From: Candidatus Liptonbacteria bacterium
GTDB lineage: Bacteria; Patescibacteriota; Minisyncoccia; UBA6257; 2-01-FULL-56-20
Assembly (NCBI GenBank): GCA_023244935.1
Contig: JAHFLJ010000001.1
Span: 13,327 to 77,326, forward strand
Length of the DNA stretch: 64,000 nucleotides
Reading direction: 5' to 3'
Shown: in pieces, positions 7,201-55,011 of the stretch
Layout of the letters: each line of letters opens with the position of its first letter
Numbering within the stretch: the first letter of the stretch is position 1
Position numbers and translations under genes: made by a program
Notes under the pieces: generated by a model
The model's database searches: none
What the model was told of the DNA's origin: nothing
What the model saw: only the letters and a program-made list of their open reading frames with translations

Positions 7201-7231
7201 ATCCCTGAGAATTCAGGGATTTTTATTTTTC
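7201..7231 (+). terminator. intrinsic terminator after rny
   Basis: atccctgagaattcagggat hairpin followed by ttttattttt. Confidence 0.7.
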
Positions 7232-7289
7232 ACTTTGCCTATACCGTTTTAATTATTAATTGTTGGTAATAATTTATTTATTGAACCAC

Positions 7290-7559
7290 TTAGTCCAAAG
7301 ATTGATAAATATCCTTTCTCTGCCCGATTGCGAACAGAATAATGTCCTGACTATTCAACCGAAAAATTCCACGATAAACACGAGTAACCCTGAAAGAAAA
7401 GACTCTATCACTACCGAATCCTTTCAGTTTTTTAGTATGAAGTTTCGAATTAAACATATTTTTGCTCAATAAGACTTCTTGTTTCAACAAAAATTTCCTT
7501 TCTTTATCAGAAAGCAAGGCTGTCTCCTTGACATAATTCCTGCTTTTTAAAAGAATCAT
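7290..7559 (-). CDS. type II toxin, RelE/ParE family
   Basis: 89 aa with C-terminal FRVTRVYRGIFRLNSQDIILFAIGQRKDIYQ, typical of RelE/ParE. It overlaps the upstream antitoxin gene by 4 nt. Confidence 0.6.
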   Translation of the reverse strand: MILLKSRNYVKETALLSDKERKFLLKQEVLLSKNMFNSKLHTKKLKGFGSDRVFSFRVTRVYRGIFRLNSQDIILFAIGQRKDIYQSLD

Positions 7560-7789
7560 CTTTGAAATTCTTTTAACGAATCCTTGTAAGAGGAGATTAT
7601 ATCTTTTTTATTGACATAAAGGCTCAACTCTTCAGTAGGCATCTTAGAAATCACGATGCCTTGATTTACGATAAACTGTCTGAGTGAGGCGTTAATAATA
7701 TCCGTCAAAGAAAACCCAAGCTCCCTGGCCAAATCTTGCGCCTGCACCTTCAATTCCTTTTTAGTTTTTATTAAAATAGTTGTGTCCAT
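7556..7789 (-). CDS. type II antitoxin, RelB/DinJ ribbon-helix-helix family
   Basis: MDTTILIKTKKELKVQAQDLARELGFSLTDIINASLRQFI is an RHH fold. The ATG at 7789 is preferred because the 7831 ATG lies within a TTGACA -35-like element. Confidence 0.55.
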   Translation of the reverse strand: MDTTILIKTKKELKVQAQDLARELGFSLTDIINASLRQFIVNQGIVISKMPTEELSLYVNKKDIISSYKDSLKEFQR

Positions 7790-7992
7790 ATCCGAAAGTA
7801 TATATAAACGGATAATATTGTCAAATGCCAAACTTCCGCCTCAACCCCCAGGAATCCGCGAGTTTTACGTACCCAAGCCAGGATTTTTCGGAAATTTATT
7901 TACAACCGGATACAACCAAAGCAAAAAATCGTAAGTCTTTTGATAAATTATTAGATCCTGAAGCATTTTGAAAATTAAATTCTATATTTTAT

Positions 7993-8035
7993 TTTCTCCT
8001 GTTCTTTCCGCTTAATCGGAAAGAACAGGAGAAAA
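7993..8035. terminator. bidirectional hairpin terminator downstream of the prepilin-FGE gene
   Basis: ttttctcctgttctttccg-cttaat-cggaaagaacaggagaaaa is a perfect 19-bp stem with A/T tracts on both sides. Confidence 0.6.
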
Positions 8036-8081
8036 TACAAAACCAATACTAGATTACAGATTTCAGATTACTAAACAACAA

Positions 8082-9653
8082 CTACCGAGCACAGCGGAAC
8101 CCGATGCTGCCGCCCGTATCCGTCGGACCAGTGCTCAAGATCAACGTCTCTACCCCAGCGTACGTGTCATAATACCAATCCCCACCGCGAACGAAGGCGT
8201 AAGGAGTTGACCCTCCGGCGGAGTATGAGGAATTTATCCTGCCAATTCCCTGAGTTGCGGTCCAGGCTGAATTTGAAGGTCCAGCGAGAGTTGGAGATAA
8301 GGTTCCCCAATTTGTTATGTTCGGAAACTCTCGCCATCCTGTCGGCTGTGGTTGATTTCCGTTGGTGATTGTGTCGTTAGTCCATTCCCAAACGTTCCCT
8401 GCCAAGTCCCAAATAATTTGACCATTCGAAAGAGTGTGGGCACGTCGGTGAGTGAAGTCGGCTGTGACAAGGTAGGTTGAATTGGTGTCGTCTGCAGATG
8501 CAATTTGCGCCGCAGAACCATTTGAATTTCCTCTGCCCAAGTATCCACTTCCGACTGAACTTCCGCTCCAATTACTTGATACACTCTGTGCATTCCAAGC
8601 AATTGTTTGCCATTCGTTGTTGGTGATGAGATGTGCTCCGATAGATTGGCAGTAAGAATGTGAAGTTGTTTGATCGATATTTGCGATTGGGTATCCGGCA
8701 GGAGTGGAAGTTAAATACCTTCCGGATGTATTACAAGGATATCCAGAATTATTATACGTTTGATATCCGGTATCGTAAGGTGCCGATCCAAGCGGACCCG
8801 TAGTATCCGCGCACTTGGCTTCGTATTTCATCACCCAAAAATCAGATGTTCCGAAGGTGGAGTTGCCAGGGACTCTAATCCAACCATTTGGAAAGATTCC
8901 TGCTCCAAGATTCATATTATTTCCCATTTCAAAAGAAGCGGGCGCTGTGCCTCCGTCGGTATTTCCTTGCACAATGTATTTTTGGGATTCCAGGGATACG
9001 GCGGTTAGCTTCCAGCTTCCTCCAGACATATAGGTGTAATAATTCAGACTTGTAGTGGTATTGATTGGATCGATGGGAAGTTGTGAAATTGGAGAATTGG
9101 ATGATATCTTTTGGAAGTTAACCGGAATCCAGCCGGTGCCGTCGGTTTTACGGAGATTGGCAGTGGTGACACAATTGTATTGCCAGCCGGTTGGGAGAGT
9201 TGGCAGACCTAAGTTGGCGCACGTTGAAGATATGTCCGGAATGGATACATAAACCACCGTGGGTGTTCCCATAGATCCTGTGGAGACATCTGCAGAAAAC
9301 AGATTAAGCGCGGTGTTGATTGTCGAGAGATCCGAGAATCGATTGGAATCTCTGGCTTGTTTGAGTAATTCCCCTGGGTTAAGAGCCATAATAACAACCA
9401 CACTTAAAATCGCGACTAGGGCGAGGACTACCAGGAGTTCGATAAGGGTAAAGCTTCCCCGTTTGTTTACCCTGAGAGTAGTCGAAGCCTTGCCTGCCGG
9501 CAGGCAGGGGTCAGTCTGAGCCTGCGAAGAATCTAAATTAGATCCTTCCCTGCGTTCAGGATGACAGAAAAGAGAATTCAAAAACCTGGATTGTCCAAGC
9601 AAGTTGGACAATGACAGAATAGAAAAGAAACTTCCTTTGTTTTTATTCTTCAT
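8082..9653 (-). CDS. prepilin-type N-terminal domain protein fused to a C-terminal FGE-sulfatase (SUMF1/C-type-lectin-fold) domain; start uncertain
   Basis: NKRGSFTLIELLVVLALVAIL is a class III signal. The C-terminus carries HLITNNEWQ, WDLAGNVWEWT, RGGDW and GFRCAR motifs of the FGE-sulfatase family. The gene is GC-richer than its neighbours. The ORF's first ~60 codons lie in a dispersed repeat, and no ATG/GTG/TTG lies between the repeat and the KRG site. Confidence 0.6.
   Translation of the reverse strand: MKNKNKGSFFSILSLSNLLGQSRFLNSLFCHPERREGSNLDSSQAQTDPCLPAGKASTTLRVNKRGSFTLIELLVVLALVAILSVVVIMALNPGELLKQARDSNRFSDLSTINTALNLFSADVSTGSMGTPTVVYVSIPDISSTCANLGLPTLPTGWQYNCVTTANLRKTDGTGWIPVNFQKISSNSPISQLPIDPINTTTSLNYYTYMSGGSWKLTAVSLESQKYIVQGNTDGGTAPASFEMGNNMNLGAGIFPNGWIRVPGNSTFGTSDFWVMKYEAKCADTTGPLGSAPYDTGYQTYNNSGYPCNTSGRYLTSTPAGYPIANIDQTTSHSYCQSIGAHLITNNEWQTIAWNAQSVSSNWSGSSVGSGYLGRGNSNGSAAQIASADDTNSTYLVTADFTHRRAHTLSNGQIIWDLAGNVWEWTNDTITNGNQPQPTGWREFPNITNWGTLSPTLAGPSNSAWTATQGIGRINSSYSAGGSTPYAFVRGGDWYYDTYAGVETLILSTGPTDTGGSIGFRCAR
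9510..9616. repeat. 107-bp dispersed repeat unit, copy A (copy B at 50990-51096, ~95% identical)
   Basis: gtcagtctgagcctgcgaagaatctaaattagatccttccctgcgttcaggatgac... plus the ttgtccaagcaagttggacaa hairpin. It is internally palindromic and flanked by CCTGCC...GGCAGG palindromes. Confidence 0.7.
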
Positions 9654-9881
9654 TCGTATAATTCCTGCCTGCCGGCAGGCAGGCGTATTGATTCGTAATT
9701 TCGTAATTATTCTAAATTCTATTTTCTGAGTTCTATATTCTATGTTCTAACTATACCACATTTTGCCTCTGGGGGGGGCAACAACAGCTGGGGATAGTTA
9801 AAGGACTCATAGCTTATCAACTTATAACAAATAACTAAAAAGAATTTGAGGCCGGAATTATTAGTGATTGGCGATAAGTCA

Positions 9882-29409: not shown

Positions 29410-32400
29410 ATGCCAACAGAAAGAAAAATTGTCGGACAGGACGGACTATCGGAAGGCGAAAAAAAGGAACAAGAACGACAAATTCGCAAAATCAAGCAAG
29501 CTAGAAACTTCGACGAGCTTGCTGATGCCATGTCGGGAACAAAATTTGAAGACAGCATCAAAAATATTAAATTCGCGGGCAAAAGTGTCCGCGCCTTTAT
29601 CGATACGGATGGCCTGCGAAGAGATTATCTCGACCATGCAAACATCCTTCTGACGGAAAATACTGCCTTCCAAATACATATTAAAATGGGAGACCCAGTT
29701 GCTCTTGCAATTCTAAACCAAGGCAGAGAAATTCTTGAAAATGCCAAAAACACCGAAAAGGAGTCTCTCGATCTTCCGGATCCGACCGAAGAACCGGAAT
29801 CGCCCGAAACCTCTCCTATAGACGAAGAAACGGCGCCGGTGCAAGAGCCAATCCCCAATACTAGCGCCCCGGAACCAATAATTTCGGAAGTGGTTGGAGC
29901 CAACCCTCCGTCATCTCGAAGCGCCGAAAAAAGTGACCTGCCAAAAACCCTCGAAGACTACATACGCTTTACCGATAATCTGAGCGGACTCAGCGAGATC
30001 CTATCTGCTTACGGGGAAAAAGAAAACCGAGAAAAAATAACAAACATACTCACTAAGCTAATTTCAGCCGAATCCAAAGCAGAAGAAAGAAAAAATATAG
30101 CCGAAAATATCCAGGAGATTAGAAATCTTTTGTCGGATCTCGATAGCCCGCTGAAAGAAAAAGCTACCGAACTCGTAAAAAACGACCTGGCAAGAATTAT
30201 TGGGATTGATTTAGATGCTCCAGAAACATCCTCCTCTTCTGGAAACAACACAAATGAGAACACCCCTTCCCTGCCGGAAAAAATGAATGAAGATCCGCGT
30301 TTTTTAAGATTAGTGAATGACTTCAGCAAAAAATATTTTTTAGTAGATAACCCTAACTTTTCCAAAGAATTCTCCGGGGCTGTCTCCGTAAATGGACATA
30401 TGATGAGTGCGGACGGAAAAGAAACAAATTTTTTACCGAGTCAGATTATTGGAGTGGAAAGCTATCATACGGCACTCAAGGAAGCAGCAAAAAGATTTAA
30501 AGAATTATACCCGGAAGACTCTCAAGAATATGAAAAACGAAAAGAACCGGAGCTCATAATCTCGGGCATAGCCGGTGCAGCAGCTGAAAACATCTCTGCT
30601 CCTGAAAAGAAAATAACCGCCGAGGAGTTGAAAGAGAAAATAGTAGGGGCAAAATCTCTTGCCGAGCTCGCGGACACGCTAGAAAAACTAGAAGAAATCC
30701 CTACATCCTCCGGAGACTACACAAAAACCATGCCACTTGCCGTTTTATTGCGGGATACTAAAAATTTTGCATACATTGCCCCCGAAGCGATTAAAAGCAA
30801 GGTTGATAATTTTTGGAATCTATATCAAGACCGATTCACAAGGCAGGGAGGACTAAGAGAGAAAGTTTACTCCTTATTATCAGCCATCCTCGAAAACCCA
30901 GAGGCTCACGAAGAATCAAATGGTGCAGAAACTAACGAAATGTCAAAACCCGAGATGCGGTTTACGGGGATAGAAGATTTAAACATCGAAGCGAAAAATA
31001 AACCTATCCGGCCATTTCCGGATGCAGAACAGGCCCCTCCAAGGTTTACAGATATAGAAGAAAGCCCGCTAGATCGCGAAGCGGTTGAGGGCGAAATTGA
31101 ATCAACCATTGAAGAGGTTCTATCCGAACCGGCGACCCTAGAAGCTGCGACCGAAGCAATGTCTCCAGAATCAACTTCCGAAGAAAAACAAAAAATAAAA
31201 GAGGTGTTGAGCTCTCCTGATGCGAAAGAATCACTTATGAAACGGATTAAAAAACAAATGCGCGACCCGGCTTTTTGGCGCGACCTGGCAATCGGAACCG
31301 CGGCAGGAGGCACAACCAGAATGGTGGTCAGAAACTCAATTCGCTTTGCTCTTGGTCCGAACATCTTAGTTGGAATTGCAGCCGGAGGAATAGCCGGAGG
31401 TCTTGGAGCGGGAGTGGTTGAATTAATAAAAGAAAAAAGAATGATGCTCGGAACCGGCGCCTTGGAAAAACTTAAAAACGCTACCGACAACCTCGAAAGG
31501 GCAAAAATCTACGGCGAACTGAAGCGAATCTACGGCGAGAAAAAGATCTCAGGAACCGCGGAAGAAATCGAAGCGATAAACCAGGAGCTAATCCAAACCG
31601 AAACGATTCTAAAAACTGCACTGGAAACAAAGGACTTAGAAGGAAAAGATAAAATTTCGGCAATTCTTAAGATATCGGATGATTCCCGCGAAAGTCTTTC
31701 GAAAGAAGAACGGAAAGAAGTCAAAAAACTACTAAAAGAAATTAAATTTGAACGCGGGCCGGCAGATTGGAAAAAAATCAGCAAGTGCGCAACGAAAGGC
31801 GCCATAATGGGATCCATTGGTGGCGCGCTTGGAGGAGCCTTATCTTCGTGGCTATCCGGCAACTTAAATGGCGGAAACGCAACTGAGAAAGCCCTCGAGA
31901 AGGCTTCAGCGGCAAAAAAGGCAGCTGGGGAACTCTGGAATGAAAGATATGAAGCATGGAAATCAATGAAAGAACCGATATCTCGGGCTCAGGAAGTAGT
32001 ACGCGAGACAACGACATCAACGAGAGACAGTCTTTCCTCGAAATTCTTTGCAGTCACCACCGAGAAAGGTGAAGGCGTAACCCACTTGGCCAGAAAAGCG
32101 ATACATGAATATCTAGCAAATGACACCAAGCTAAATGGGACTCTAGGCAATACAATGAACACCGAAAAACTAGTTTATGCCGAAGACTACCTGCAAAAAC
32201 AACTCACCCCGCTGAATGCGCCGACCCTCCATCCCGGAGATTCATTCCAGATTGAAGGAAATAAAATAGCCGAGGCTCTCGAAAAAGCAGGTGTCTTAAA
32301 CGAAGAGCAAATAAGTTCGGTTGCCAAGGTAATTGAAAGTAATGGGGGCCTATCCGAAGAATCAAAAATGTTTATCTCTAACCCGGGGTTTGGCGTTCTC

Positions 32401-33285
32401 GACCCACAGAATGACTTTGTTGAAGCAATAAGCAAAAATACACCGGTAATATCCGAAGAAATTAACACTAGGATAGCTGAAGGTAGTGCAAAACAAGTAG
32501 CAGAAAATGCAGTTTCTGATATAAAAGAAGATTATGAGTATTTGTCCAAGGTAGAGAAGGGATGGTCTAATAAGCTCGGAAGTAGATTGTTCGAAGCGCA
32601 ACTCATAGATGGCGTTGTATCCTCGGGAATTGCACTGCCCGCAAGCGCGATAGCATTGTTTAGTAACCCGATAGACGAATATGATAGTTATGAAAAACAA
32701 GATCCTCTCGAAAAAGCTAAGGGGCTCGAAGATAAGTATGGTGTGACCCTGGAACATGGCGATGACCAGGAACTCACGAGTGAATCCGTCACAAAACTTG
32801 AGGGAATATTAGAAGAATTATCCGCTCAGTCCGATATTACCGGCCTGACGTTTATACATGCGAGCAATATTGATAGCGGTCTAATAGTAGATGATTATGG
32901 TCAAATTTTGGTTGACGTCGAAAATTATAATGAAGTCAAACCCGGCGCAATCCAAGAAGCGAAAGATAAAACAGCGAAAATGAAAGAACTGGATATTTTT
33001 ATAAGGAGTAAGAAGGCTGAAATTATAAAAATGGCCGGTAAATCTCCGATGTTCGAATTAATAGCGGATGAAAAATTAACAATAGATGAAACAAAAAAAC
33101 AGGCAGAGGCGGTGTTTTCGGCAGTACAAGAAGCTCTGGCTCAAGGAATTAAATTAAAAACAAAAAATATTATTATTTCTGATTACTATGACACAGCTAA
33201 AGGAGGAGCTAAGTTCGGTGTATGGATAAATCAAAACAGCAAAAAAGAAGAAATTGTCGAATTTCTTAAAAAAACATTCGCTTAA
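29410..33285 (+). CDS. giant hypothetical protein (1291 aa), acidic with coiled coils and two glycine-zipper hydrophobic segments
   Basis: The ORF starts 3 nt after the trpS stop. I recognise no catalytic motif. GxxxG zippers (LVGIAAGGIAGGLGAGVV; GAIMGSIGGALGGALSSWL) lie mid-protein, alongside Glu/Lys-rich low-complexity segments. Confidence 0.5.
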   Translation: MPTERKIVGQDGLSEGEKKEQERQIRKIKQARNFDELADAMSGTKFEDSIKNIKFAGKSVRAFIDTDGLRRDYLDHANILLTENTAFQIHIKMGDPVALAILNQGREILENAKNTEKESLDLPDPTEEPESPETSPIDEETAPVQEPIPNTSAPEPIISEVVGANPPSSRSAEKSDLPKTLEDYIRFTDNLSGLSEILSAYGEKENREKITNILTKLISAESKAEERKNIAENIQEIRNLLSDLDSPLKEKATELVKNDLARIIGIDLDAPETSSSSGNNTNENTPSLPEKMNEDPRFLRLVNDFSKKYFLVDNPNFSKEFSGAVSVNGHMMSADGKETNFLPSQIIGVESYHTALKEAAKRFKELYPEDSQEYEKRKEPELIISGIAGAAAENISAPEKKITAEELKEKIVGAKSLAELADTLEKLEEIPTSSGDYTKTMPLAVLLRDTKNFAYIAPEAIKSKVDNFWNLYQDRFTRQGGLREKVYSLLSAILENPEAHEESNGAETNEMSKPEMRFTGIEDLNIEAKNKPIRPFPDAEQAPPRFTDIEESPLDREAVEGEIESTIEEVLSEPATLEAATEAMSPESTSEEKQKIKEVLSSPDAKESLMKRIKKQMRDPAFWRDLAIGTAAGGTTRMVVRNSIRFALGPNILVGIAAGGIAGGLGAGVVELIKEKRMMLGTGALEKLKNATDNLERAKIYGELKRIYGEKKISGTAEEIEAINQELIQTETILKTALETKDLEGKDKISAILKISDDSRESLSKEERKEVKKLLKEIKFERGPADWKKISKCATKGAIMGSIGGALGGALSSWLSGNLNGGNATEKALEKASAAKKAAGELWNERYEAWKSMKEPISRAQEVVRETTTSTRDSLSSKFFAVTTEKGEGVTHLARKAIHEYLANDTKLNGTLGNTMNTEKLVYAEDYLQKQLTPLNAPTLHPGDSFQIEGNKIAEALEKAGVLNEEQISSVAKVIESNGGLSEESKMFISNPGFGVLDPQNDFVEAISKNTPVISEEINTRIAEGSAKQVAENAVSDIKEDYEYLSKVEKGWSNKLGSRLFEAQLIDGVVSSGIALPASAIALFSNPIDEYDSYEKQDPLEKAKGLEDKYGVTLEHGDDQELTSESVTKLEGILEELSAQSDITGLTFIHASNIDSGLIVDDYGQILVDVENYNEVKPGAIQEAKDKTAKMKELDIFIRSKKAEIIKMAGKSPMFELIADEKLTIDETKKQAEAVFSAVQEALAQGIKLKTKNIIISDYYDTAKGGAKFGVWINQNSKKEEIVEFLKKTFA

Positions 33286-33288
33286 CAA

Positions 33289-33606
33289 ATGAACGAAATA
33301 GAAACAATAATCAAAAAAAATCGAGAAGGGCTCCTGTCTCTCTTGGGGATTGAGAACCTAAAAGAAGAAGAAAAAGAAGCTACGGCCAATCAACTCTTCG
33401 AACACTTTAATAAAATAATTATTGAAACCTCGATATCCGCACTAAACGACGTGCAGGTGAAAGAATTCACTCGGTTAATGACTGCCGGACTACCCGAAGA
33501 AGGGATGGAAAAAATATTTGCCGAAACTCCGGGGCTTAAAGAAAAAATTCAAAACGCGTTAAGCCGAGAAGCAGAAACAATAAAGATTGCCTATAACAGT
33601 AAATAA
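33289..33606 (+). CDS. hypothetical protein (105 aa), translationally coupled partner of the giant protein
   Basis: It starts 4 nt after the giant ORF's stop and shares its terminator. Confidence 0.4.
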   Translation: MNEIETIIKKNREGLLSLLGIENLKEEEKEATANQLFEHFNKIIIETSISALNDVQVKEFTRLMTAGLPEEGMEKIFAETPGLKEKIQNALSREAETIKIAYNSK

Positions 33607-33681: not shown

Positions 33682-36600
33682 CTAGCTTTTTCGTATTGCC
33701 AGCCAAATCACGCCATCATCAACTTTGATCTCGGTTTCAGTTAAGAATTTAGGCTCTTTTTTGAATATTATTTTTGTCGCCCCGGTCTCCTTCAATATGA
33801 ACTTCTGCCACCTCTCTAGAATTCCGGATGTCATCGGTGTCGAGGCAATCATAAGCAAAACCTTGTTCGAAGGCTTCAGCTCGGCTTTTTGTCTTAACTC
33901 CGAGACTCCCCGAATTAGTTCGCGAACCAAGCCTTCTTCTCGAAGCTCATCGGATATCTCTTTATTCAATTCAACTTTTTCACCTATCTCCTTTTTCAAG
34001 GAAATAGCTTTTACATTAACTTCATCCATAATAATCGACATCAGCTCTTCATATTTGGAAAGTAATTTATATGCGTTCTCTCCCAAATATAAATCTGCTA
34101 AAGGCTGCCTGACTTTCAAGGCGGAGCTAGCTCTTTCGGCAAGCGCCAAACTGGAAACATTCCTCGCCTGTTCCATGGCCGAAACAAATTCCAATTCTTT
34201 AGAAGTTATAGGTTTAAATTTATCCCAATCCGCCAAGTGAACCGAGGATTCCAATTTTATTCCTGAATATTTTTTAACGGCTCCAAATATTGCTTCGGAA
34301 AAGAACGGGATAAACGGCGCGGATAATTTTGTAAGTGAAATCAAAACTTTTTCCAATGTTGCCGACGCCTCCAAATATTCTTGCTTAGTTTCCGGCTTCT
34401 GCAGTCTTCTTCGAGATCTGCGAATATACCATCTGGAAAGGTCATCAACAAATGCTTCGAGCGCCAAAGCGGCTTCACGCACATCATACTTCTCCATATT
34501 TTCACTAACCGAATTCCCGGTCTGAGACAACCGCATCAAAATCCACTTATCCAAAACATTCTTGGATTGTTTTACCGATCGCGAGGCCCCGCCTTTTGCA
34601 TAGGTGCGATAGAAAACAAAGGAATTGTAATACAATAAGTGAAATTTCCTGTATACCTTAAGCAATTCCGCCTCGTCAAAATTTTTTGACTCCCCCGGCG
34701 GATTAACCACGTAAAAATACCATCTAATTGCATCCATCCCATACTTGTCCGCCAGCGCCCAAGGATCAACGATATTCCCTTTGGATTTACTCATCTTTAC
34801 TCCGTTCTTGTCGTTAATTAATCCCAAACAGATTACGTTTCGATATGGCGCCTCGTGCCCAAGCAGAGTTGAAGTTGCCAACATGGTATAGAACCATCCC
34901 CTGGTCTGATCCATTGCCTCGGAAATATAATCCGCCGGAAACTCCAATTTTTTCATCAGTTTGTTCGCGTCGGTGAGTGAAACGTTTTTACCGCCGGAAT
35001 ACTTAAACGGAAAATGATTTTGCGCATACGGCATGGCCCCCGAGTCAAACCAAACATCTGCCACCTCTTTCACTCGATTCGCTCGCCCTCCGCACTTATC
35101 GCACTTTAGAATAATTTCGTCGACGTAAGGTTTGTGCAAGTCCAACTCGCCTGAACGATTTATCGGCAATGAATAAAACTTTTCTTTCCTGATTTCTCCA
35201 AATCCATATTCTTTCGCGGTTACAAATTGTTTTATCGGCAAACCGTTCATCCCCAGGCTCAAAGTTAAAAGCGGGTCTCCGTGACTAACAATAACAATTT
35301 TTTGGTCCTTGTGCCGTGAATTTATTTCTTTAATAAATTCCATCATTCGTCGCGAAACATCAAAGACGCTTTCTCCTCCGGGAGGAGTTTTCGTAAGCCT
35401 CTCCTCTCCTTGTCCATGAAATTCCCGATACTCTTTTATCGGACGCCAGTTAAACACGCCGGTGTTTATTTCAGTCAACCGATTATCAAAGATTATTTCT
35501 GCGCCGGTTGCCGAACTTATTTCTCGAGCCAACTGCGAAGTCCTGGTCATCGGCGATGCGTAAATTACATCTATTTTCTCTTTATTCAATTTGCCTGCGG
35601 TTTTTTTAGCTTGTAACTCTCCTCTCTTGGTTAGAGGCGCGATATTCTTGCCGACCTCTATCCCGCTAGCAACAAATCCACCGACATTACTTTCCGCTTC
35701 GGTGTGACGCACCAAATAAAACGAATTCTTATAATAATCATTTTCTTTTATCTCGCTAACCGCTCCAATAACTTTTATCGCCGAGCAATCACCGCACCGC
35801 CAAATCGGGAGCGGAGTTCCCCAATATCGCTCACGAGAAATATTCCAATCTTTTGCCTCTTTCAGCCACTCGCCAAACCGCCCTTCTTTAATATGCTCCG
35901 GCACCCAAGCTATTTTTTCATTCTCCGCGGAAAGCTTACTTCGCAAACGACTAACCTCCAAAAACCAAGAACGGCGCGCGAAATATATTAGAGGAGAACC
36001 ACACCTCCAACAAAATGGATATTCGTGCTCGATTTTTCCGGAAGAGAACATCAACCCACGATTAACTAAATCCGCAGAGATATCCGCATCAGCTTCCTTA
36101 ATAAACTTTCCCTCCCCGGGAAGTCCGGCAATCACTTTTCCCTCATCGTTGATTGTTGTGAGTAATTCAATATCCGGATAATGCTCAGCAACCAACTGGA
36201 AATCCTCTTCTCCAAACGCCGGCGCAATATGAACAAACCCGGTTCCGTCTTCAGTGGAAATAAACCCTGCCGGCAAAACTTTAAACATTTTTTGGACATC
36301 TTGTCCGGCGACTTCAAATAGGGGCTTATATGAAAGACCTACCAATTTACTTCCGGAAATTTTTTCCACCGCCTCGGCAAAAATTTCTTTTCCGTTTTTA
36401 TCTTGAGTTGTCGGCGGAACACTATATGACCAAATATAGTCTCCTCCTACTTTATATTTTGTGTAAGTCAAATCCGCGCCAACCGCCACGAACATATTCG
36501 AAGGCAACGTCCACGGAGTTGTCGTCCAAATTAAAATGTATTCATTCTTATGCCCGGCATCCAAAACCTTCAACTTCACATAAACCGAAGGATCCGGAAC

Positions 36601-37203
36601 TTTTTTATAAACTCCCGGCTGAGCAATCTCGTGACTTGCCAGAGCCGTCTGACAACGAGAGCAATATGGAATAACCTTTCGCTTCTCTTTCAAAAATCCC
36701 CTATCGGCAATTGCCTTAAAAACCCACCACAAACTTTCGATGTAACTATTTTCATAGGTTACATACGGGTTCTTCATATCTAGCCAATATCCCATTCTTT
36801 CGGTTAATCTCTCCCACTCATCTTTGTATTTCCAGACAGACTCTTTTGCTTTTTCGTTAAACAAATTAATCCCGAACTTTTCCAAATCCCGCTTATTTTT
36901 TATTCCCAATTCTTTCTCTATTCCTACTTCAACTGGGAGGCCATGAGTATCCCAACCGGCGCGTCGCGGGACATAAAACCCGCGCATAGTTTTGTAGCGC
37001 AGAATTATGTCCTTAAAAGACCTAGCTAAAACGTGGTGAATTCCCGGTTGCCCGTTGGCTGTCGGCGGACCTTCATAAAAAACAAATTCTTTTTTGCCCT
37101 TTCGCTTCGATAAACTTTTCTCGAAAATTTTGTCTCGTTTCCAGAATTCTAAAACCTTTTTTTCAACTTCGGGTAGGCTAAATTCGGTGTTTTCGTTAAG
37201 CAT
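33682..37203 (-). CDS. ileS: isoleucine--tRNA ligase with an internal histidine-phosphatase (PGM-family) domain insertion
   Basis: HIGH (PPTANGQPGIHH), KMSKS, zinc knuckles CxxC (CSRCQ, WRCGDC, CDKCGG) and the anticodon-binding region are present. 1173 aa. Residues ~490-685 (LVRHTEAESN...PPGGES...VIVSHGD) form a histidine phosphatase fold between the two Zn knuckles. Confidence 0.9.
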   Translation of the reverse strand: MLNENTEFSLPEVEKKVLEFWKRDKIFEKSLSKRKGKKEFVFYEGPPTANGQPGIHHVLARSFKDIILRYKTMRGFYVPRRAGWDTHGLPVEVGIEKELGIKNKRDLEKFGINLFNEKAKESVWKYKDEWERLTERMGYWLDMKNPYVTYENSYIESLWWVFKAIADRGFLKEKRKVIPYCSRCQTALASHEIAQPGVYKKVPDPSVYVKLKVLDAGHKNEYILIWTTTPWTLPSNMFVAVGADLTYTKYKVGGDYIWSYSVPPTTQDKNGKEIFAEAVEKISGSKLVGLSYKPLFEVAGQDVQKMFKVLPAGFISTEDGTGFVHIAPAFGEEDFQLVAEHYPDIELLTTINDEGKVIAGLPGEGKFIKEADADISADLVNRGLMFSSGKIEHEYPFCWRCGSPLIYFARRSWFLEVSRLRSKLSAENEKIAWVPEHIKEGRFGEWLKEAKDWNISRERYWGTPLPIWRCGDCSAIKVIGAVSEIKENDYYKNSFYLVRHTEAESNVGGFVASGIEVGKNIAPLTKRGELQAKKTAGKLNKEKIDVIYASPMTRTSQLAREISSATGAEIIFDNRLTEINTGVFNWRPIKEYREFHGQGEERLTKTPPGGESVFDVSRRMMEFIKEINSRHKDQKIVIVSHGDPLLTLSLGMNGLPIKQFVTAKEYGFGEIRKEKFYSLPINRSGELDLHKPYVDEIILKCDKCGGRANRVKEVADVWFDSGAMPYAQNHFPFKYSGGKNVSLTDANKLMKKLEFPADYISEAMDQTRGWFYTMLATSTLLGHEAPYRNVICLGLINDKNGVKMSKSKGNIVDPWALADKYGMDAIRWYFYVVNPPGESKNFDEAELLKVYRKFHLLYYNSFVFYRTYAKGGASRSVKQSKNVLDKWILMRLSQTGNSVSENMEKYDVREAALALEAFVDDLSRWYIRRSRRRLQKPETKQEYLEASATLEKVLISLTKLSAPFIPFFSEAIFGAVKKYSGIKLESSVHLADWDKFKPITSKELEFVSAMEQARNVSSLALAERASSALKVRQPLADLYLGENAYKLLSKYEELMSIIMDEVNVKAISLKKEIGEKVELNKEISDELREEGLVRELIRGVSELRQKAELKPSNKVLLMIASTPMTSGILERWQKFILKETGATKIIFKKEPKFLTETEIKVDDGVIWLAIRKS

Positions 37204-37366
37204 ATTTTTGTAGTTAAATGATATCTAAAACCCCACCGCTCTGCAACGTGGTCGCGGGAACTCGCCAACTATCGCTTATAACTAATGGCTAGTAACTAAT
37301 ATTACAAAATTCCCGCCTTTGGTTATCGGTGATAAGTTATTAGTGGTATTCCATGCACTCCGCGTC

Positions 37367-39067
37367 CTATATTTCCTCCGGCGATTCAATTCCCAAAAGC
37401 CCGAGCCCTTTTTTAATTACCGATGAAATTGAAGTAATAAGTGCCAGATATGCCTGCTTTTTCTTTTTATTCTCCTCTTTCAGAATATGAGTAGTTTCGT
37501 AAAATTTATTCGCCAAAACTGCCAATGAGAATAAATAACCGGCTAAATTATTTGTATATAACGTTTCAGCGCTCTTTTTTATTTCCTCAGGAAAATCCAA
37601 AAGTTTTTTAATCAAATTCAACTCGAGGTCTTTGTCCAGCATCGTAAAATCTACATTCGAAATTTTTCCCCCTTTCTTTATTATCCTGCTAAGTCTTGCC
37701 CTGGTGTATTGCAAATACGGAGCGCTGTTGCCGGAGAAATCCAGCATCCGATTCCAATCGAAAACAATATCGGAGTTTCTGTTCTCTTTAAGATCATTAT
37801 ATTTAAGCGCGCCGATTCCGATTGCCTTGGCTATCTTTTTCCTCTTCACGGCGGATAAATTCATATTCTTTTTAGTAATTGCGTCTTCCGCTAAAACCAA
37901 AATTTTAGCGATTAATTCCGAAAGTTGTATGGCGCGTCCCTCTCGAGTAGAAAGTTTTTTACGATCCTCGCCTAACACTAAACCAAACTTGGCATGCCGC
38001 AATTCTGCGCCGTCGATACCCATTTTTTTAGCGACCGCGAACATCTGCTCAAAATGCAAAGTCTGCTCATTCGCCACCACGTAAATAATCTGCTCCGGCT
38101 TATATTTTTTGTTCCTATCTCGAACACTCGCTAAATCCCTTGTTAAATAAAGGCTCGCACCGTCTGACTTCGCAACCAACGCCACCGGCAAGCCTTGCTC
38201 AGCCAAATCAACAACCAAAGCGCCTTCGCTCAAAGTGGCGATGCCTTTCTTTTTCATCTCAGAGATTATCGGCGCCATCTGTTGCTCGTAGGCGCTCTCC
38301 CCAACCCAAACGTCAAAGTCTATCCCAAGCAATTTGTACACTTTTTTGAATTCTTTAAGAGACTCCTCTCTAAACCATTTCCAAAGAGCCCGGTTTTCTT
38401 TGTCGCCTCTCTCCAATTTATTAAACTCTTCTCTGCCTTTATCGTCCAGCAACGCATCCGTTTTTACCCGATCGTGAAAGTAAACGTATAATCTCAATAA
38501 TTCTTCAATTGGATTCTTCTTTACTGCCGACTTATTTCCCCAAGTCTTATACGCATAAATTAGTTTTCCGAATTGAGTTCCCCAATCTCCTAAATAATTC
38601 CAGCGGATTACTTTATATCCGCACTCCTCCAGTATGTTCGCCAAGGCATCGCCGATAATCGTCGAGCGCAAATGTCCGACATGCATTTTCTTGGCAATGT
38701 TCGGCTGAGAATATTCCACAATAACCTTCTTGCCTTTCCCGGAGCTCAACTTACCGTATTTATTTTTTTCTTTATATATATTTTTAAGCTCCGCCTGTAA
38801 TGTTTTCGGAGAAAGATAGAAATTAACAAATCCCGGACCGGCAACTTCTATCTTAGAAAAAAACCCTTTCGGCGCGGCTATCTCTAGGCTTGCTACTAAT
38901 TCCCTCCCAACCTCCTGTGGATTTTTACCCTGTTCTTTTGCCAACCTCATAGCCACATTCGTAGAATAATGTCCAAGTGTTGGATTCTCGGTACTCGAAA
39001 TCTCCGCTCCTGAAATTTCCGGAAGTTGCGACTCAACCAATTTTTTTATTTTTTCCTTTATTCTCAT
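37367..39067 (-). CDS. argS: arginine--tRNA ligase
   Basis: HVGHLRSTIIGD (HIGH) and a DALR anticodon-binding C-terminus are present. 566 aa. Confidence 0.9.
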   Translation of the reverse strand: MRIKEKIKKLVESQLPEISGAEISSTENPTLGHYSTNVAMRLAKEQGKNPQEVGRELVASLEIAAPKGFFSKIEVAGPGFVNFYLSPKTLQAELKNIYKEKNKYGKLSSGKGKKVIVEYSQPNIAKKMHVGHLRSTIIGDALANILEECGYKVIRWNYLGDWGTQFGKLIYAYKTWGNKSAVKKNPIEELLRLYVYFHDRVKTDALLDDKGREEFNKLERGDKENRALWKWFREESLKEFKKVYKLLGIDFDVWVGESAYEQQMAPIISEMKKKGIATLSEGALVVDLAEQGLPVALVAKSDGASLYLTRDLASVRDRNKKYKPEQIIYVVANEQTLHFEQMFAVAKKMGIDGAELRHAKFGLVLGEDRKKLSTREGRAIQLSELIAKILVLAEDAITKKNMNLSAVKRKKIAKAIGIGALKYNDLKENRNSDIVFDWNRMLDFSGNSAPYLQYTRARLSRIIKKGGKISNVDFTMLDKDLELNLIKKLLDFPEEIKKSAETLYTNNLAGYLFSLAVLANKFYETTHILKEENKKKKQAYLALITSISSVIKKGLGLLGIESPEEI

Positions 39068-39380: not shown

Positions 39381-39818
39381 ATGTCCATTATCGCCGAAAA
39401 TCGCAAAGCCCACTTCGACTATATTATAGAAGAAACCATAGAAGCAGGCATCAAACTGCTTGGTTTTGAAGTTAAAAGCGCCAAACACGGTAAACTCGAG
39501 CTCGCCGGAAGCTACGTGATTATTCGTGGCGGAGAGGCCTGGCTGATAAATTCAAAAATTGCCCCGGAACAACCCAAAAATGCCCCTGCAGATTATGAAC
39601 CATCCCATATCCGCAAACTACTTTTAAATAAAAAGGAGATCTCTCGGCTCGCCGGCGTATTAGATCAAAAAACATATTCTGCAGTAGGCCTCTCGGCAAA
39701 AGTAAAAAAGAATTTAATTAAAATCGAAATCGGAGTTGGGCGCTCGAAGAAAAAATCCGACAAACGTGAAACTATTAAAAAACGAGAGACTTTAAGAGAA
39801 ATTCGAAGAGAGGTTTAG
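39381..39818 (+). CDS. smpB: SsrA-binding protein SmpB
   Basis: 145 aa. KAHFDYIIEETIEAGIKLLGFEVKS...KLLLNKKE matches SmpB. Confidence 0.9.
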   Translation: MSIIAENRKAHFDYIIEETIEAGIKLLGFEVKSAKHGKLELAGSYVIIRGGEAWLINSKIAPEQPKNAPADYEPSHIRKLLLNKKEISRLAGVLDQKTYSAVGLSAKVKKNLIKIEIGVGRSKKKSDKRETIKKRETLREIRREV

Positions 39819-39895: not shown

Positions 39896-40263
39896 GGGGA
39901 TGATGGGCTTCGCCGAGAGACGGAGAGCTTCCCTGCGAGCCGAGCGCAATCTCGCAAATCTTGCACAAACTACTAACTGCCAACTTTAAAGTTGCAGCTC
40001 CTGCCTACGCCTACGCGTAACGCACGGGGATCTCCTGCCTGATTTATCACGCAAGAGGATCGGCTAGCCTTTGCCCTTTGGGTTAATACCGGTCTTATAT
40101 AAAAGGACTACTTCGCGAAGAGGCGACACGACTCTCGCGGATAAAAAATCGTGTCGTCCTGATCAAAAATCAGAACCGTTTCAAATTTATTTTTGAAACT
40201 ACGCTCGTAGACGGGCTGTCTTTGCCCCTTTCGCACGAGGGTTCAACTCCCTCCATCTCCACA
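39896..40263 (+). ncRNA. ssrA: tmRNA (SsrA)
   Basis: 5' GGGGATGATGGGCTTCGCC...GCGAGCCGAG... and 3' GGACGAGGGTTCAACTCCCTCCATCTCC-ACA are clearly alignable to Bacillus-type tmRNA. The tag ORF GCC AAC TTT AAA GTT GCA GCT CCT GCC TAC GCC TAC GCG TAA (39979-40020) gives ANFKVAAPAYAYA. The promoter TTGTCA-17-TATTAT ends 8 nt before the 5' G. Confidence 0.85.
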
Positions 40264-40266
40264 AAC

Positions 40267-53972: not shown

Positions 53973-54509
53973 ATGTCAGGACACTCTCATTGGTCAGGAA
54001 TAAAACATCAAAAAGAAATTACCGACAAAAAACGAGGCGTGGTTTTCTCTAAACTTTTAATGGCAATTTCCGCCTCCGCGAAATCTGACCCGGATCCAAA
54101 CTTTAACCCCCGTCTCCGAAGCGCAATCGAAAAAGCGGAAGAAAACAATGTTCCCGCCGAAAATATTGCCCGAGCCATAAAACGCGCCAAAGAAAGCGCC
54201 GAAGGAGTTGAAGAACTTATTTTTGAAGGATATGGACCGGCTGGTGTCGGAATTATAATTTCGGTCATCACCTCCAACAGTAATCGCGCCATTTCTGAAA
54301 TTAAAAGTATTCTAATCAAGGCCGGAGCCCGCTGGGCAGATCCCGGAAGTGTTAAATGGGCATTTGAAACTCCTAAGTCTTTTGGCGGAGACTGGATTCC
54401 AAAGCATTTAATTCCCATTGAAGAAGAGGACGCGAAAAAATTAAGTTCTATTATTGACTCCTTAGAATCTCACGATGACGTCCAAAAAATTTTTACGAAT
54501 GCCGAATAA
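53973..54509 (+). CDS. YebC/PmpR-family DNA-binding regulator (short, 178 aa)
   Basis: MSGHSHWSGIKHQKEITDKKRGVVFSKL is a conserved YebC N-terminus. It is shorter than the usual ~240 aa. Confidence 0.75.
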   Translation: MSGHSHWSGIKHQKEITDKKRGVVFSKLLMAISASAKSDPDPNFNPRLRSAIEKAEENNVPAENIARAIKRAKESAEGVEELIFEGYGPAGVGIIISVITSNSNRAISEIKSILIKAGARWADPGSVKWAFETPKSFGGDWIPKHLIPIEEEDAKKLSSIIDSLESHDDVQKIFTNAE

Positions 54510-55011
54510 TTTTGAAAAAATAAATATTCTCGGAATCGACCCTGGCACAAAACGCGCCGGTTTCGGAGTTATATCCAAAGAAGGAAACATTTTGCGGCTC
54601 CTTGACGCGGGAATTTTTGCCGTCGGAAAATCCACTACAAATGAATCTCTCTTAATTATAAAAAATCAAATAGACCTTTTGATAAAAAAATATAACCCTT
54701 CTGTATTCGCGATAGAAAAACTTTTTTTCTCCACCAATCAAAAAACCGCGATGAGCGTCGCGGAGTCTCGCGGAGTTTGTATCCTCTCTGCTTTAGAAAA
54801 AAATATTCCTATTTTGGAGTTTTCCCCTAACGAAATCAAAAGCTCAATAGCCGGATTCGGAATGGCCGACAAAAAAGCTATTTTGAAAATGGTGCGACTG
54901 ATTCTAAAAGAACCAAATTTAAAAGTCATAGATGACGCCAGCGATGCACTTGCCATTGCAATCGTGGGAGCCCAAAACCTTAGACTTATAAAAACAGAGG
55001 GTGGCCACTAG
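54499..55011 (+). CDS. ruvC: crossover junction endodeoxyribonuclease RuvC
   Basis: ILGIDPGTKRAGFGVI and the catalytic Asp/Glu pattern are present. The start MPNNFEK at 54499 overlaps the yebC-like end. Confidence 0.85.
   Translation: MPNNFEKINILGIDPGTKRAGFGVISKEGNILRLLDAGIFAVGKSTTNESLLIIKNQIDLLIKKYNPSVFAIEKLFFSTNQKTAMSVAESRGVCILSALEKNIPILEFSPNEIKSSIAGFGMADKKAILKMVRLILKEPNLKVIDDASDALAIAIVGAQNLRLIKTEGGH

What the first reader, a model, noticed from the sequence alone, without database searches (positions are those of the whole stretch)
35149..35736. IleS carries an internal histidine-phosphatase (phosphoglycerate-mutase-family) domain
The 1173-aa IleS has intact HIGH/KMSKS motifs and both zinc knuckles. 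Between WRCGDC...VIGAVSEI and LHKPYVDEI...CDKCGG there are ~190 extra residues (about aa 490-685). That gap is normally 20-40 aa. The extra segment has the histidine phosphatase clade-1 signature: LVRHTEAESN (RHG-type catalytic His), ASPMTRTSQLA, PPGGES and VIVSHGD (second catalytic His). Its fold is a phosphatase, not an intein or an editing domain, so an aaRS has a phosphatase fold in-frame.
Basis: partly seen in the sequence, partly recalled or inferred. Interest (0 to 1): 0.7.

Follow-up and report, generated by a model that had tools for sequence, protein, structure and literature searches.

The report
Histidine phosphatase nested inside IleRS
An essential protein-synthesis enzyme (isoleucyl-tRNA synthetase) of an ultra-small Patescibacteria/CPR bacterium carries a complete, apparently active phosphatase inside one of its surface loops, and related bacteria keep the same phosphatase as a separate gene next to ileS or have inserted it at other positions, which points to an undescribed working partnership between the two enzymes.

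Summary
ORF 33682..37203 (-) encodes a 1173-aa type-2 IleRS (TIGR00392, 846 bits). It holds a complete histidine-phosphatase (HP, Pfam His_Phos_1, E=5e-33) module at aa 489-676. The module sits between the two Cys pairs of the CP3 zinc knuckle, where about 200 residues replace about 10 residues of T. thermophilus IleRS.

The IleRS motifs are intact. The HP catalytic set (R499, H500, R554, E578, H641) is invariant in 120/120 homologues, and the insert is under purifying selection.

New here:
- The closest free relatives (~190 aa) lie next to ileS in 6 of 8 cases, mostly as argS-HP-ileS, in the same neighbourhood as the window.
- Other lineages carry HP at three further IleRS positions, sometimes as two divergent copies.
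- HP is also fused to ArgRS, TsaC, a QueC-family protein and ATP sulfurylase.

All partner enzymes form an adenylate from ATP and release pyrophosphate. I infer an active partner phosphatase, most likely removing PPi or another shared by-product; the substrate is unproven. I found no paper describing this.

The parts
33682..37203 (-). ileS ORF, 1173 aa plus stop; type-2 isoleucyl-tRNA synthetase with a nested phosphatase
   Evidence: TIGR00392 846 bits vs 621.4 cut-off; Foldseek best match P. megaterium IleRS2 8c8v, TMt 0.78; AF2 model mean pLDDT 89.2, pTM 0.81
35740..37203 (-). IleRS N-terminal part (aa 1-488): first Rossmann half with GIHH (37033..37044), CP core Cys pairs (36652..36663, 36001..36012), CP1 editing domain with WTTTPWT (36508..36528), CP2, and the first half of CP3
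   Evidence: Aligns to 1ILE 4-478; these motifs are invariant in 72 homologues; coordinates verified
35785..35796 (-). CP3 zinc-knuckle Cys pair 1 (C470-G-D-C473), equivalent to 1ILE C461/C464
   Evidence: at least 90% conserved; lost in some insert-bearing lineages
35176..35739 (-). Complete histidine-phosphatase (HP, His_Phos_1) module, aa 489-676, equivalent to a whole free ~190-aa protein
   Evidence: Pfam E=5e-33; profile of free homologues covers positions 3-182; pLDDT 85-95; pN 0.11-0.15 with saturated pS; GC 0.422 vs 0.429 for the rest of the gene
35704..35709 (-). R499-H500: RH(G/T) motif, with the predicted phospho-accepting histidine
   Evidence: Invariant 120/120; 108/112 embedded domains, the other 4 being gaps
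35542..35544 (-). R554, second phosphate-pocket arginine
   Evidence: Invariant 120/120
35470..35472 (-). E578, predicted general acid
   Evidence: Invariant 120/120; E or D in 111/112
35281..35283 (-). H641, second catalytic histidine (SHGDPLW subfamily signature)
   Evidence: Invariant 120/120
35143..35175 (-). Conserved connector (aa 677-687, YSLPINRSGEL) returning to CP3; N678 and P680 nearly invariant
   Evidence: N678 112/120, P680 119/120
35092..35103 (-). CP3 zinc-knuckle Cys pair 2 (C701-D-K-C704), equivalent to 1ILE C502/C504
33685..35142 (-). IleRS C-terminal part (aa 688-1173): DLHKP, WFDSG (35038..35052), DQTRGW, KMSKS (34783..34797), anticodon-binding domain, DUF5915 C-terminal domain
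   Evidence: Aligns to 1ILE 488-820; Pfam Anticodon_1 and DUF5915
37204..37366 (-). 163-nt argS-ileS spacer, the position where sister lineages encode the free HP gene; no HP remnant and no structured RNA detected
   Evidence: z-score -0.08; synteny
37367..39067 (-). argS (566 aa), upstream neighbour; part of the conserved SmpB / argS / (HP) / ileS neighbourhood

Best explanation
SHOWN. The gene encodes a normal, complete type-2 IleRS. Its synthetic-site motifs, editing domain and tRNA-binding domains are intact. A whole PhoE/PspA-like histidine phosphatase (HP) has been inserted into its peripheral CP3 zinc-knuckle loop. HP keeps every catalytic residue and evolves under purifying selection. 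In sister Patescibacteria the same HP is a free ~190-aa protein encoded directly next to ileS, typically in the order argS-HP-ileS. In other lineages it is inserted at three other IleRS positions, or fused to ArgRS, TsaC, a QueC-family PP-loop protein or ATP sulfurylase.

INFERRED. HP is a catalytically active second (third, counting editing) active site that works together with IleRS. Every partner enzyme uses ATP to make an adenylate and releases pyrophosphate. The most likely job is therefore hydrolysis of a terminal phosphate on a shared by-product of the adenylation step. My leading candidate is PPi -> 2 Pi through a phospho-His500 intermediate, with E578 as general acid. That would pull amino-acid activation forward and prevent pyrophosphorolysis of Ile-AMP.

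Sub-probabilities: nested architecture derived from the operon neighbour 0.9; catalytically active phosphatase 0.8; functionally coupled to IleRS rather than merely co-located 0.6; substrate is PPi 0.3.
For: IleRS is intact: TIGR00392 846 bits; HIGH-type, KMSKS, WFDSG, editing WTTTPWT and Zn Cys conserved; fold matches IleRS2 8c8v and 1ile. HP identity: PF00300 E=5e-33, PspA 4ij5 E=1.6e-21. Catalytic residues are invariant in 120/120 and kept in 103-111/112 embedded domains, including both copies of double inserts. Selection: pN 0.11-0.15 against saturated pS 0.7-0.8, similar to the IleRS C-terminal domain. Clade-wide: all 120 best homologues have PF00300+PF00133; 11 species-representative genomes have it, including Yanofskybacteria, Spechtbacterales, Minisyncoccia, Peregrinibacteria and Peribacteria. 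Gene neighbourhood: 6 of 8 free HP genes are adjacent to ileS, with 1-7 nt gaps in L086/L087 and a 4-nt overlap in L093; 5 follow argS; synteny matches the window. Recurrent attachment: four insertion sites mapped by motif order. Copies within one protein are only 23-30% identical, yet 72-80% conserved between orthologues. Other fusions: ArgRS-HP, TsaC-HP, QueC-family-HP and HP-PUA-ATP sulfurylase. The last comes from the Patescibacterial Sat/APS-kinase lineage; lengths and query coverage suggest HP sits where APS kinase normally does. Shared ATP -> AMP-X + PPi chemistry rests on established enzymology (EC 6.1.1.5, 6.1.1.19, 2.7.7.87, 2.7.7.4); the QueC family is drawn with AMP + PPi in PMC13329287. 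PPi hydrolysis by a histidine-phosphatase-superfamily member has one precedent, in branch 2 (PMC7926622).
Against: There is no biochemical data, and no branch-1 histidine phosphatase is known to me as a dedicated pyrophosphatase. The non-IleRS fusions are rare (1-3 clusters each). The ArgRS fusion could be a trivial read-through of adjacent genes. Adjacency to ileS raises the mutational opportunity for fusion, so recurrent insertion need not mean physical coupling. CP3 is a variable peripheral subdomain (PMC7191050) and may simply tolerate inserts. I could not read the model coordinates, so the distance from H500 to the synthetic site is unknown. Some Patescibacteria (L011, L023, Saccharibacteria L033/L044) have neither an insert nor an adjacent HP. 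I could not test whether HP-bearing genomes lack a canonical pyrophosphatase. Three of four non-IleRS partners also belong to tRNA biology, which fits a tRNA-linked role equally well.
Confidence: 0.45

Rival explanations
1. tRNA/RNA-end phosphatase. HP removes a 2'- or 3'-phosphate from the tRNA 3' end (or another RNA end), left for example after nuclease damage or cyclic-phosphate opening. This would restore a substrate for class I synthetases, which charge the 2'-OH of A76.
For: IleRS, ArgRS, TsaC and QueC-family partners all belong to tRNA biology. The conserved neighbourhood is translation-related: SmpB/tmRNA, IF3, L20/L35, argS, ileS. One distant free HP lies two genes from a LigT/2H cyclic phosphodiesterase and another near Pelota. 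His_Phos_1 is also fused to RNase H in the known PRK07238 family, which matched the insert at 66 bits.
Against: TsaC and QueC act on small molecules, not on tRNA. ATP sulfurylase has no tRNA link. No histidine phosphatase is known to me to heal RNA ends. PMC11685878 names CP3 only once, in its domain description; I did not read its account of tRNA contacts. It is unclear why such a repair function would be tied to IleRS rather than to the CCA-adding enzyme.
Confidence: 0.17
2. Unrelated housekeeping small-molecule phosphatase that hitch-hikes. HP has a metabolic role of its own (PhoE-like broad phosphatase, phosphoserine, sugar phosphate or similar). It is linked to ileS only for constitutive co-expression. 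In drift-prone, genome-reduced symbionts, fusions with the neighbouring gene became fixed neutrally.
For: Best matches are generic small-molecule phosphatases: PspA, PhoE, CobC and GpgP. JGI names free members 'broad specificity phosphatase PhoE'. Adjacency gives the mutational opportunity for fusion. CP3 is a permissive variable loop. HP evolves faster than the IleRS core.
Against: Four different insertion sites in an essential enzyme, each retained with intact catalytic residues over deep divergence, is a lot for neutral accidents. All additional partners share one type of chemistry. Adjacency is conserved, with overlapping or abutting stop and start codons, across divergent lineages.
Confidence: 0.22
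3. Regulatory module. HP acts as a protein phosphatase (SixA/PGAM5/Sts-like), or as a sensor for a phosphorylated metabolite that tunes IleRS activity to cellular state.
For: Protein phosphatases exist in the superfamily; SixA matched weakly (TIGR00249 E=5.7e-4). Invariant pocket residues would also be kept by a ligand sensor.
Against: The SixA match is far below its cut-off (19.8 vs 74.5 bits). The closest relatives are small-molecule enzymes. No cognate kinase is conserved nearby. The proton-donor Glu is conserved too, which points to turnover rather than binding alone.
Confidence: 0.08
4. Non-catalytic structural filler, or an artefact: an assembly chimera, a frameshift fusion, or an intein or mobile insertion.
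For: CP3 varies in topology between IleRSs, and several insert-bearing lineages have lost the zinc cysteines, so HP might simply replace a structural element.
Against: The catalytic residues are invariant. The protein is identical in two independent assemblies, and more than 120 full-length homologues exist. The ORF is continuous. No Hint/intein family matched. GC content equals that of the host gene.
Confidence: 0.03

Closest known systems
Type-2 (eukaryote/archaeal-like) bacterial IleRS, e.g. Thermus thermophilus IleRS (PDB 1ILE) and Priestia megaterium IleRS2 (8C8U/8C8V)
   Same: Same enzyme family and subtype: 753 bits to 1ILE and Foldseek TMt 0.78-0.88. It has the same CP core and CP3 zinc knuckles as 1ILE, an intact editing domain, KMSKS, and the DUF5915-type C-terminal domain.
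   Different: About 190 extra residues forming an autonomous enzyme domain sit inside CP3, where 1ILE has a ~10-residue loop. No solved IleRS has this.
Small metal-independent histidine phosphatases of branch 1: Hydrogenobacter PspA (4IJ5), Geobacillus PhoE (1EBB/1H2E), CobC (6NRU)
   Same: Same fold family and catalytic residues; size of ~190 aa without the mutase-type cap; 45-80 bits for PspA/PhoE and 31 bits for CobC.
   Different: None of the equivalog cut-offs is reached. It belongs to a distinct Patescibacteria/DPANN subfamily with an SHGDPLW signature and a conserved basic residue before PPGGES. It is linked to or inserted in aaRS genes. Its substrate is unknown.
CP1 editing domain of class Ia synthetases
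   Same: This is the precedent for a hydrolytic domain inserted into the Rossmann fold of IleRS/ValRS/LeuRS to give a second active site.
   Different: CP1 is universal, ancient and acts on aminoacyl esters. HP is lineage-specific, has an unrelated fold, performs phosphoryl-transfer chemistry, and sits at CP3 or other sites.
NCBIfam NF040702 'isoleucine--tRNA ligase, N-acetyltransferase domain-containing', and NF005567/PRK07238 'bifunctional RNase H/acid phosphatase'
   Same: These are precedents for an IleRS carrying an extra enzyme domain, and for His_Phos_1 fused to a nucleic-acid enzyme.
   Different: Different added domain or different host enzyme. Both models score far below cut-off here (256 vs 1999; 66 vs 326).
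ATP sulfurylase fused to enzymes that pull its reaction (APS kinase in PAPS synthases; pyrophosphatase fusions reported in some eukaryotes, the latter from my own knowledge and not checked here)
   Same: The logic of attaching a product-removing enzyme to an adenylate-forming enzyme. The HP-Sat fusion arose within the Patescibacterial APS-kinase/Sat lineage.
   Different: The attached enzyme here is a histidine phosphatase of unknown substrate, and the host is an aaRS.

Membership tests
Histidine phosphatase superfamily, branch 1 (Pfam PF00300) | Profile score above Pfam gathering threshold | tested here: met
   114.8 bits vs 21.7, aa 495-660, profile positions 1-166 of 194
Histidine phosphatase superfamily, branch 1 (Pfam PF00300) | Catalytic core: RHG-type Arg-His (nucleophile), second Arg, second His, acidic proton donor | tested here: met
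   R499/H500 (RHT here, RHG in most orthologues), R554, H641 and E578 are all invariant in 120/120
Histidine phosphatase superfamily, branch 1 (Pfam PF00300) | Homology to solved members / alpha-beta fold | tested here: met
   4ij5 E=1.6e-21 over 165 residues; alternating strand/helix pattern with pLDDT 85-95. No separate fold search of the isolated domain was run.
Histidine phosphatase superfamily, branch 1 (Pfam PF00300) | Phosphatase or mutase activity via a phospho-histidine intermediate | not testable with these tools
   Needs an enzyme assay
Cofactor-dependent phosphoglycerate mutase (dPGM) | Equivalog-level profile score | tested here: not met
   NF038349 81.7 vs 225; PRK01295 27.6 vs 316; TIGR01258 23.4 vs 81.7
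PspA-type phosphoserine phosphatase | Equivalog-level profile score | tested here: not met
   NF045917 85-90 bits vs 350, although PspA is the closest solved structure
CobC alpha-ribazole phosphatase | Equivalog-level profile score | tested here: not met
   TIGR03162 87-92 bits vs 162.9
Isoleucyl-tRNA synthetase (TIGR00392) | Equivalog score; class I signature motifs; editing domain | tested here: met
   846 bits vs 621.4; GIHH (a HIGH variant common in IleS2), KMSKS, WFDSG and WTTTPWT all present and conserved
Type-2 IleRS | Closer to T. thermophilus, eukaryotic and IleRS2 structures than to IleRS1; C-terminal domain of the DUF5915 type | tested here: met
   1ILE 753 bits and 8c8w 738 bits vs IleRS1 8c9f 301 bits; Foldseek ranking; PF19302
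Mupirocin-resistance IleRS MupA/MupB | Exception-level profile score | tested here: not met
   739 and 723 bits vs 1900
Intein | Hint/intein splicing domain and junction residues | tested here: not met
   No Hint-type family in the Pfam or NCBIfam scans of the insert. The junctions (..KENDYYKNSF.. and ..RSGELDLHKP..) lack the Cys/Ser/Thr ... His-Asn-Cys/Ser/Thr pattern.
Inorganic pyrophosphatase (functional class, not homology) | Hydrolysis of PPi; absence of another PPase in the genome | not tested
   No assay is possible. Only 64 kb of the genome is available; about 20 window ORFs scanned plus those annotated in L081 show no PPase, which is uninformative.

The most novel reading that the evidence does not exclude
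Patescibacteria (and perhaps DPANN) possess a dedicated histidine phosphatase that is an obligate catalytic partner of adenylate-forming enzymes, above all IleRS. It would act as a built-in pyrophosphatase-like 'third active site' of an aminoacyl-tRNA synthetase, or alternatively as a tRNA-end phosphatase. It has been physically captured by IleRS at least four independent times. That would be a new functional class of aaRS accessory domain and a new solution to PPi (or RNA-end) housekeeping in ultra-small cells.
Probability: 0.35. Interest if true: 0.85.

Novelty: new variant of a known kind. Interest (0 to 1): 0.72.

Why it matters
Aminoacyl-tRNA synthetases are among the best-studied enzymes. 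Apart from editing domains, added catalytic domains in bacterial aaRSs are rare. Here a second enzyme with an intact active site sits inside IleRS across a large part of the Patescibacteria. Three independent kinds of genomic evidence (conserved gene adjacency, recurrent insertion at different sites, and fusion to other adenylate-forming enzymes) argue that the phosphatase works with the synthetase.

If the substrate is pyrophosphate, this would show how minimal cells handle PPi and drive amino-acid activation. If it is a tRNA end, it would be a new repair activity coupled to charging.

There are two practical consequences:
- NCBI names these genes only 'class I tRNA ligase family protein', so IleRS may be under-called in CPR genomes.
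- The nested domain could in principle be miscounted as a phosphoglycerate mutase or phosphoserine phosphatase in metabolic reconstructions; I did not test this.

The hypothesis can be tested directly with recombinant protein.

Tried and rejected
- **Assembly chimera or frameshift fusion:** rejected. The ORF is continuous, the protein is identical in two assemblies, and more than 120 homologues exist.
- **Intein or mobile element:** rejected.
- **Recent foreign acquisition:** rejected. GC content equals that of the host gene and the insert is present clade-wide.
- **'Abnormal HIGH motif' (GIHH) as a sign of a defective synthetase:** rejected. The same variant is common in insert-free IleS2 of many phyla.
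- **True phosphoglycerate mutase, PspA or CobC:** all equivalog cut-offs are missed.
- **NJ tree of HP domains to prove a single origin:** unresolved. IleS-core NJ trees carry no support values and are used only as hints.
- **Remnant HP gene or regulatory RNA in the argS-ileS spacer:** none found.
- **Measuring the distance between active sites:** not possible, because the model coordinates are not exposed.
- **AFDB search for database twins:** the library was unavailable.
- **Cluster look-ups:** they gave almost no taxon names for free HPs.
- **Literature:** ten searches found no description of an IleRS or aaRS with a histidine phosphatase, and nothing on pyrophosphatase presence or absence in CPR.
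- **Canonical PPase or PGM in the window:** not seen in the ORFs scanned, but 64 kb cannot show absence.
Full report
**1. Observation**

The minus-strand ORF 33682..37203 encodes 1173 aa. Pfam finds tRNA-synt_1 split into two stretches. Between them lies His_Phos_1 (PF00300) at aa 495-660, with 114.8 bits and E=5.3e-33. Anticodon_1 and DUF5915 follow. NCBIfam calls the protein ileS (TIGR00392, 846 bits, cut-off 621.4), again in two stretches.

Against T. thermophilus IleRS (1ILE), residues 4-487 align to 4-478 and residues 687-1028 to 488-820. About 200 residues therefore replace a ~10-residue loop between the Cys pairs C470/C473 and C701/C704, which correspond to 1ILE C461/C464 and C502/C504.

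Among 80 IleS2 genes from species-representative genomes, the spacing between these Cys pairs is 30-54 aa (mostly 35-37) in 69 genes and 219-247 aa in 11 genes. The host element is the CP3 subdomain. It binds zinc only in the Thermus enzyme and has a different topology in each solved IleRS (PMC7191050). The identical protein occurs in two independent assemblies.

**2. The host enzyme is a working IleRS**

The following are all present, and the motifs named here apart from DQTRGW are shown to be invariant or nearly so in 72 homologues:
- both CP-core Cys pairs;
- the editing-site WTTTPWT and GTG-x-VH-x-AP motifs;
- WFDSG, DQTRGW and KMSKS;
- the anticodon-binding domain.

The HIGH motif reads GIHH. 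The same variant (PG[IVSL]HH) occurs in many insert-free IleS2 from Chloroflexota, Actinomycetota, Bacillota and others, so it is normal for this subtype.

An AlphaFold2 model built on 72 sequences has mean pLDDT 89.2 and pTM 0.81. The insert scores 85-95. The model superposes on P. megaterium IleRS2 and on yeast and Thermus IleRS.

**3. The insert is a complete, conserved phosphatase**

A profile built from free homologues covers aa 489-676 end to end. This includes the last beta-strand (GEIRK), which the free ~190-aa proteins also have.

The catalytic set R499, H500, R554, E578 and H641 is invariant in 120/120 homologues of 50-100% identity, as are S550/P551, G582, E611 and R619. In a wider sample the catalytic residues are retained in 103-111 of 112 embedded domains, Glu being the least conserved (103 Glu plus 8 Asp).

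Among the four closest orthologues, synonymous sites are saturated (pS 0.7-0.8). Non-synonymous divergence in the insert is 0.11-0.15, compared with 0.07-0.11 in the core and 0.12-0.155 in the IleRS C-terminal domain. GC content equals that of the rest of the gene.

The nearest solved protein is the metal-independent phosphoserine phosphatase PspA (4ij5, E=1.6e-21), followed by a PGM-family protein, PhoE and CobC. No NCBIfam equivalog cut-off (CobC, PspA, dPGM, GpmB) is reached. It is a member of the superfamily whose substrate cannot be read from homology.

**4. Distribution**

All 120 best database homologues (1031-1219 aa) carry PF00300 with PF00133. Those with names are Parcubacteria/Paceibacteria-type Patescibacteria: Liptonbacteria, Harrisonbacteria, Colwellbacteria, Minisyncoccota and Paceibacterota. 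NCBI names many of them only 'class I tRNA ligase family protein'.

In species-representative genomes the insert also occurs in Yanofskybacteria, Spechtbacterales, Peregrinibacteria and Peribacteria. It is absent from Saccharibacteria, from two other Patescibacteria (L011, L023) and from all non-CPR bacteria sampled.

**5. The free form and its gene neighbourhood**

An exhaustive search with the insert alone found 1107 relatives at E<1e-10. IleS-embedded copies and free ~190-aa proteins score similarly, at about 40% identity.

A profile of the free proteins retrieved a large standalone family. Its named members are Patescibacteria (for example Nealsonbacteria) and DPANN archaea. I examined eight free genes on longer contigs.

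The six closest to the insert lie next to ileS:

| Locus | Arrangement |
|---|---|
| L086, L087 | argS-HP-ileS, gaps of 1-7 nt |
| L092 | argS-HP-ileS |
| L093 | HP-ileS with a 4-nt overlap |
| L089 | two tandem HP genes directly upstream of ileS |
| L088 | argS-HP, with ileS nearby on the other strand |

These IleS proteins are insert-free (943-989 aa). The surrounding genes (L20, L35, IF3, SmpB, argS) match those around the window gene. In the window, argS and ileS are separated by a featureless 163-nt spacer where the free gene would be.

The two most distant free members are not linked to any aaRS gene. Insert-free L011, L023, L033 and L044 have no HP within 6 kb.

**6. Several insertion sites**

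Motif order shows at least four positions:

| Site | Position | Examples |
|---|---|---|
| 1 | PxPxW - HP - DLH(R/K)P | window and most lineages; junction distances constant at 30-35 and 187-194 aa |
| 2 | DLHK - HP - WFESG | second copy in L048 and P0234 |
| 3 | WFESG - HP - DQTRGW, with an uninterrupted 32-aa CP3 | P0247; first copy of P0246 |
| 4 | about 70 aa after KMSKS | second copy of P0246 |

The two copies within one protein are only 23-30% identical. Each copy is nevertheless 72-80% conserved between the L048 and P0234 orthologues, and both keep their catalytic residues. P0246 has six cluster members on contigs up to 1.06 Mb.

On unsupported NJ trees, free-HP and insert-bearing IleS interleave within one Patescibacterial IleS cluster. 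Several site-1 lineages have lost the zinc cysteines but kept HP.

**7. Other partners**

Among the 150 best relatives, the non-IleS multidomain proteins are:
- ArgRS with a C-terminal HP (P0190, on a 70-kb contig);
- Sua5/YrdC (TsaC) + HP (P0238);
- QueC-family + HP (P0227, two members on five contigs);
- HP + PUA_2 + ATP sulfurylase (P0144);
- a double HP (P0205, named Woesearchaeota).

The nearest relatives of the ATP-sulfurylase fusion are Patescibacterial bifunctional APS-kinase/ATP-sulfurylases. From the lengths and query coverage, HP appears to occupy the place of the kinase domain.

By established enzymology, IleRS, ArgRS, TsaC and ATP sulfurylase all convert ATP into an adenylate plus PPi. 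The QueC family is drawn the same way in PMC13329287.

**8. Interpretation**

*Shown.* A functional-looking IleRS2 contains a complete histidine phosphatase with conserved catalytic residues. That module is the same protein that sister lineages encode next to ileS. The association has been made physical repeatedly and in different ways.

*Inferred.* The phosphatase is active and works with IleRS. The feature common to all partners is release of PPi during adenylate formation. I therefore favour hydrolysis of PPi, or another terminal-phosphate by-product, through phospho-His500, which would pull activation forward (probability about 0.3).

The rivals are:
- a tRNA/RNA-end phosphatase (0.17), since most partners are tRNA-related;
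- an unrelated housekeeping phosphatase fused neutrally because it lies next door (0.22);
- a regulatory role (0.08);
- a structural filler or artefact (0.03).

Only weak precedent exists for PPi hydrolysis in this superfamily: a branch-2 enzyme (PMC7926622). I could not test whether HP-bearing genomes lack a canonical pyrophosphatase. I also could not measure the geometry between active sites, because the coordinates are not exposed.

**9. Novelty**

Ten full-text searches found no report of an IleRS or any aaRS with a histidine phosphatase. The architecture is visible in precomputed Pfam annotations but appears undescribed. I rate it a new variant of a known kind, namely aaRS domain accretion. 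It has an unusually strong comparative-genomic case for functional coupling and a hypothesis that can be tested directly.

Noticed in passing
window 37033..37044 (aa 54-57): The class I 'HIGH' signature reads G-I-H-H: the first His is replaced by Gly and the Gly by His, relative to HVGH in 1ILE. The same PG[IVSL]HH variant is widespread in insert-free IleS2 of many phyla, alternating with PH[IVAYF]GH.
   Followed up: partly
L003, L004, L009, L010, L048 (IleS genes): Several insert-bearing IleS have lost all four CP3 zinc-knuckle cysteines (e.g. T-SY, N-DQ, DTSE) but keep the phosphatase. The zinc site is therefore not needed to hold the insert.
   Followed up: partly
L073 (CAYUZV010000008.1, labelled Woesearchaeota archaeon), and P0205/P0355/P0396: An IleS from a DPANN-labelled MAG clusters with Patescibacterial IleS on the core tree. 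Free and double HP proteins of this subfamily are also labelled Nanoarchaeota/Woesearchaeota. This could be gene exchange between CPR and DPANN, or binning error.
   Followed up: no
window 29410..33285 (+) and 33289..33606 (+): A 1291-aa ORF and a 105-aa ORF lie directly downstream of ileS on the opposite strand. Neither has any Pfam hit on record. Both are conserved in the two assemblies that carry the identical IleS. The large protein has low-complexity acidic and Ser/Pro-rich stretches and Gly-rich hydrophobic segments.
   Followed up: no
window 39381..39818 (+) and 39896..40264 (+): SmpB lies immediately upstream of a full-length tmRNA gene (115 bits) and is divergently oriented from argS. 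The SmpB-argS arrangement is conserved in all HP/ileS loci examined.
   Followed up: partly
L090 (P0345 locus) 2869..5558; L091 3189..5258: The two most distant free HP genes are not aaRS-linked. One lies two genes downstream of a LigT/2H RNA 2',3'-cyclic phosphodiesterase-like gene. The other is near a Pelota (ribosome rescue) gene. Both are RNA-related neighbours.
   Followed up: no
L007 (Peregrinibacteria JACPMA010000018.1) 6001..9774: The tblastn match to IleS starts at 6001, but the table-11 ORF starts only at 6556. This could be an in-frame stop, a frameshift or a sequencing error in the N-terminal part of this insert-bearing ileS.
   Followed up: no
window 53973..54509 (+) and 54475..55011 (+): The YebC/TACO1-family ORF is only 178 aa, with its second and third domains matched only partially. 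It overlaps the start of the RuvC ORF by 35 nt. This may be a truncated YebC or a frameshift.
   Followed up: no
L089 6001..7182: Two tandem free HP genes (64% identical to each other) sit directly upstream of ileS. This is a recent duplication, in contrast to the very divergent (23-30%) copies inside double-insert IleS.
   Followed up: partly
P0401-P0518: Many Patescibacteria (Pacebacteria, Zambryskibacteria, Paceibacterota) encode a bifunctional APS-kinase/ATP-sulfurylase (PAPS-synthase-like) protein. That is unexpected for organisms usually described as lacking most biosynthesis.
   Followed up: no
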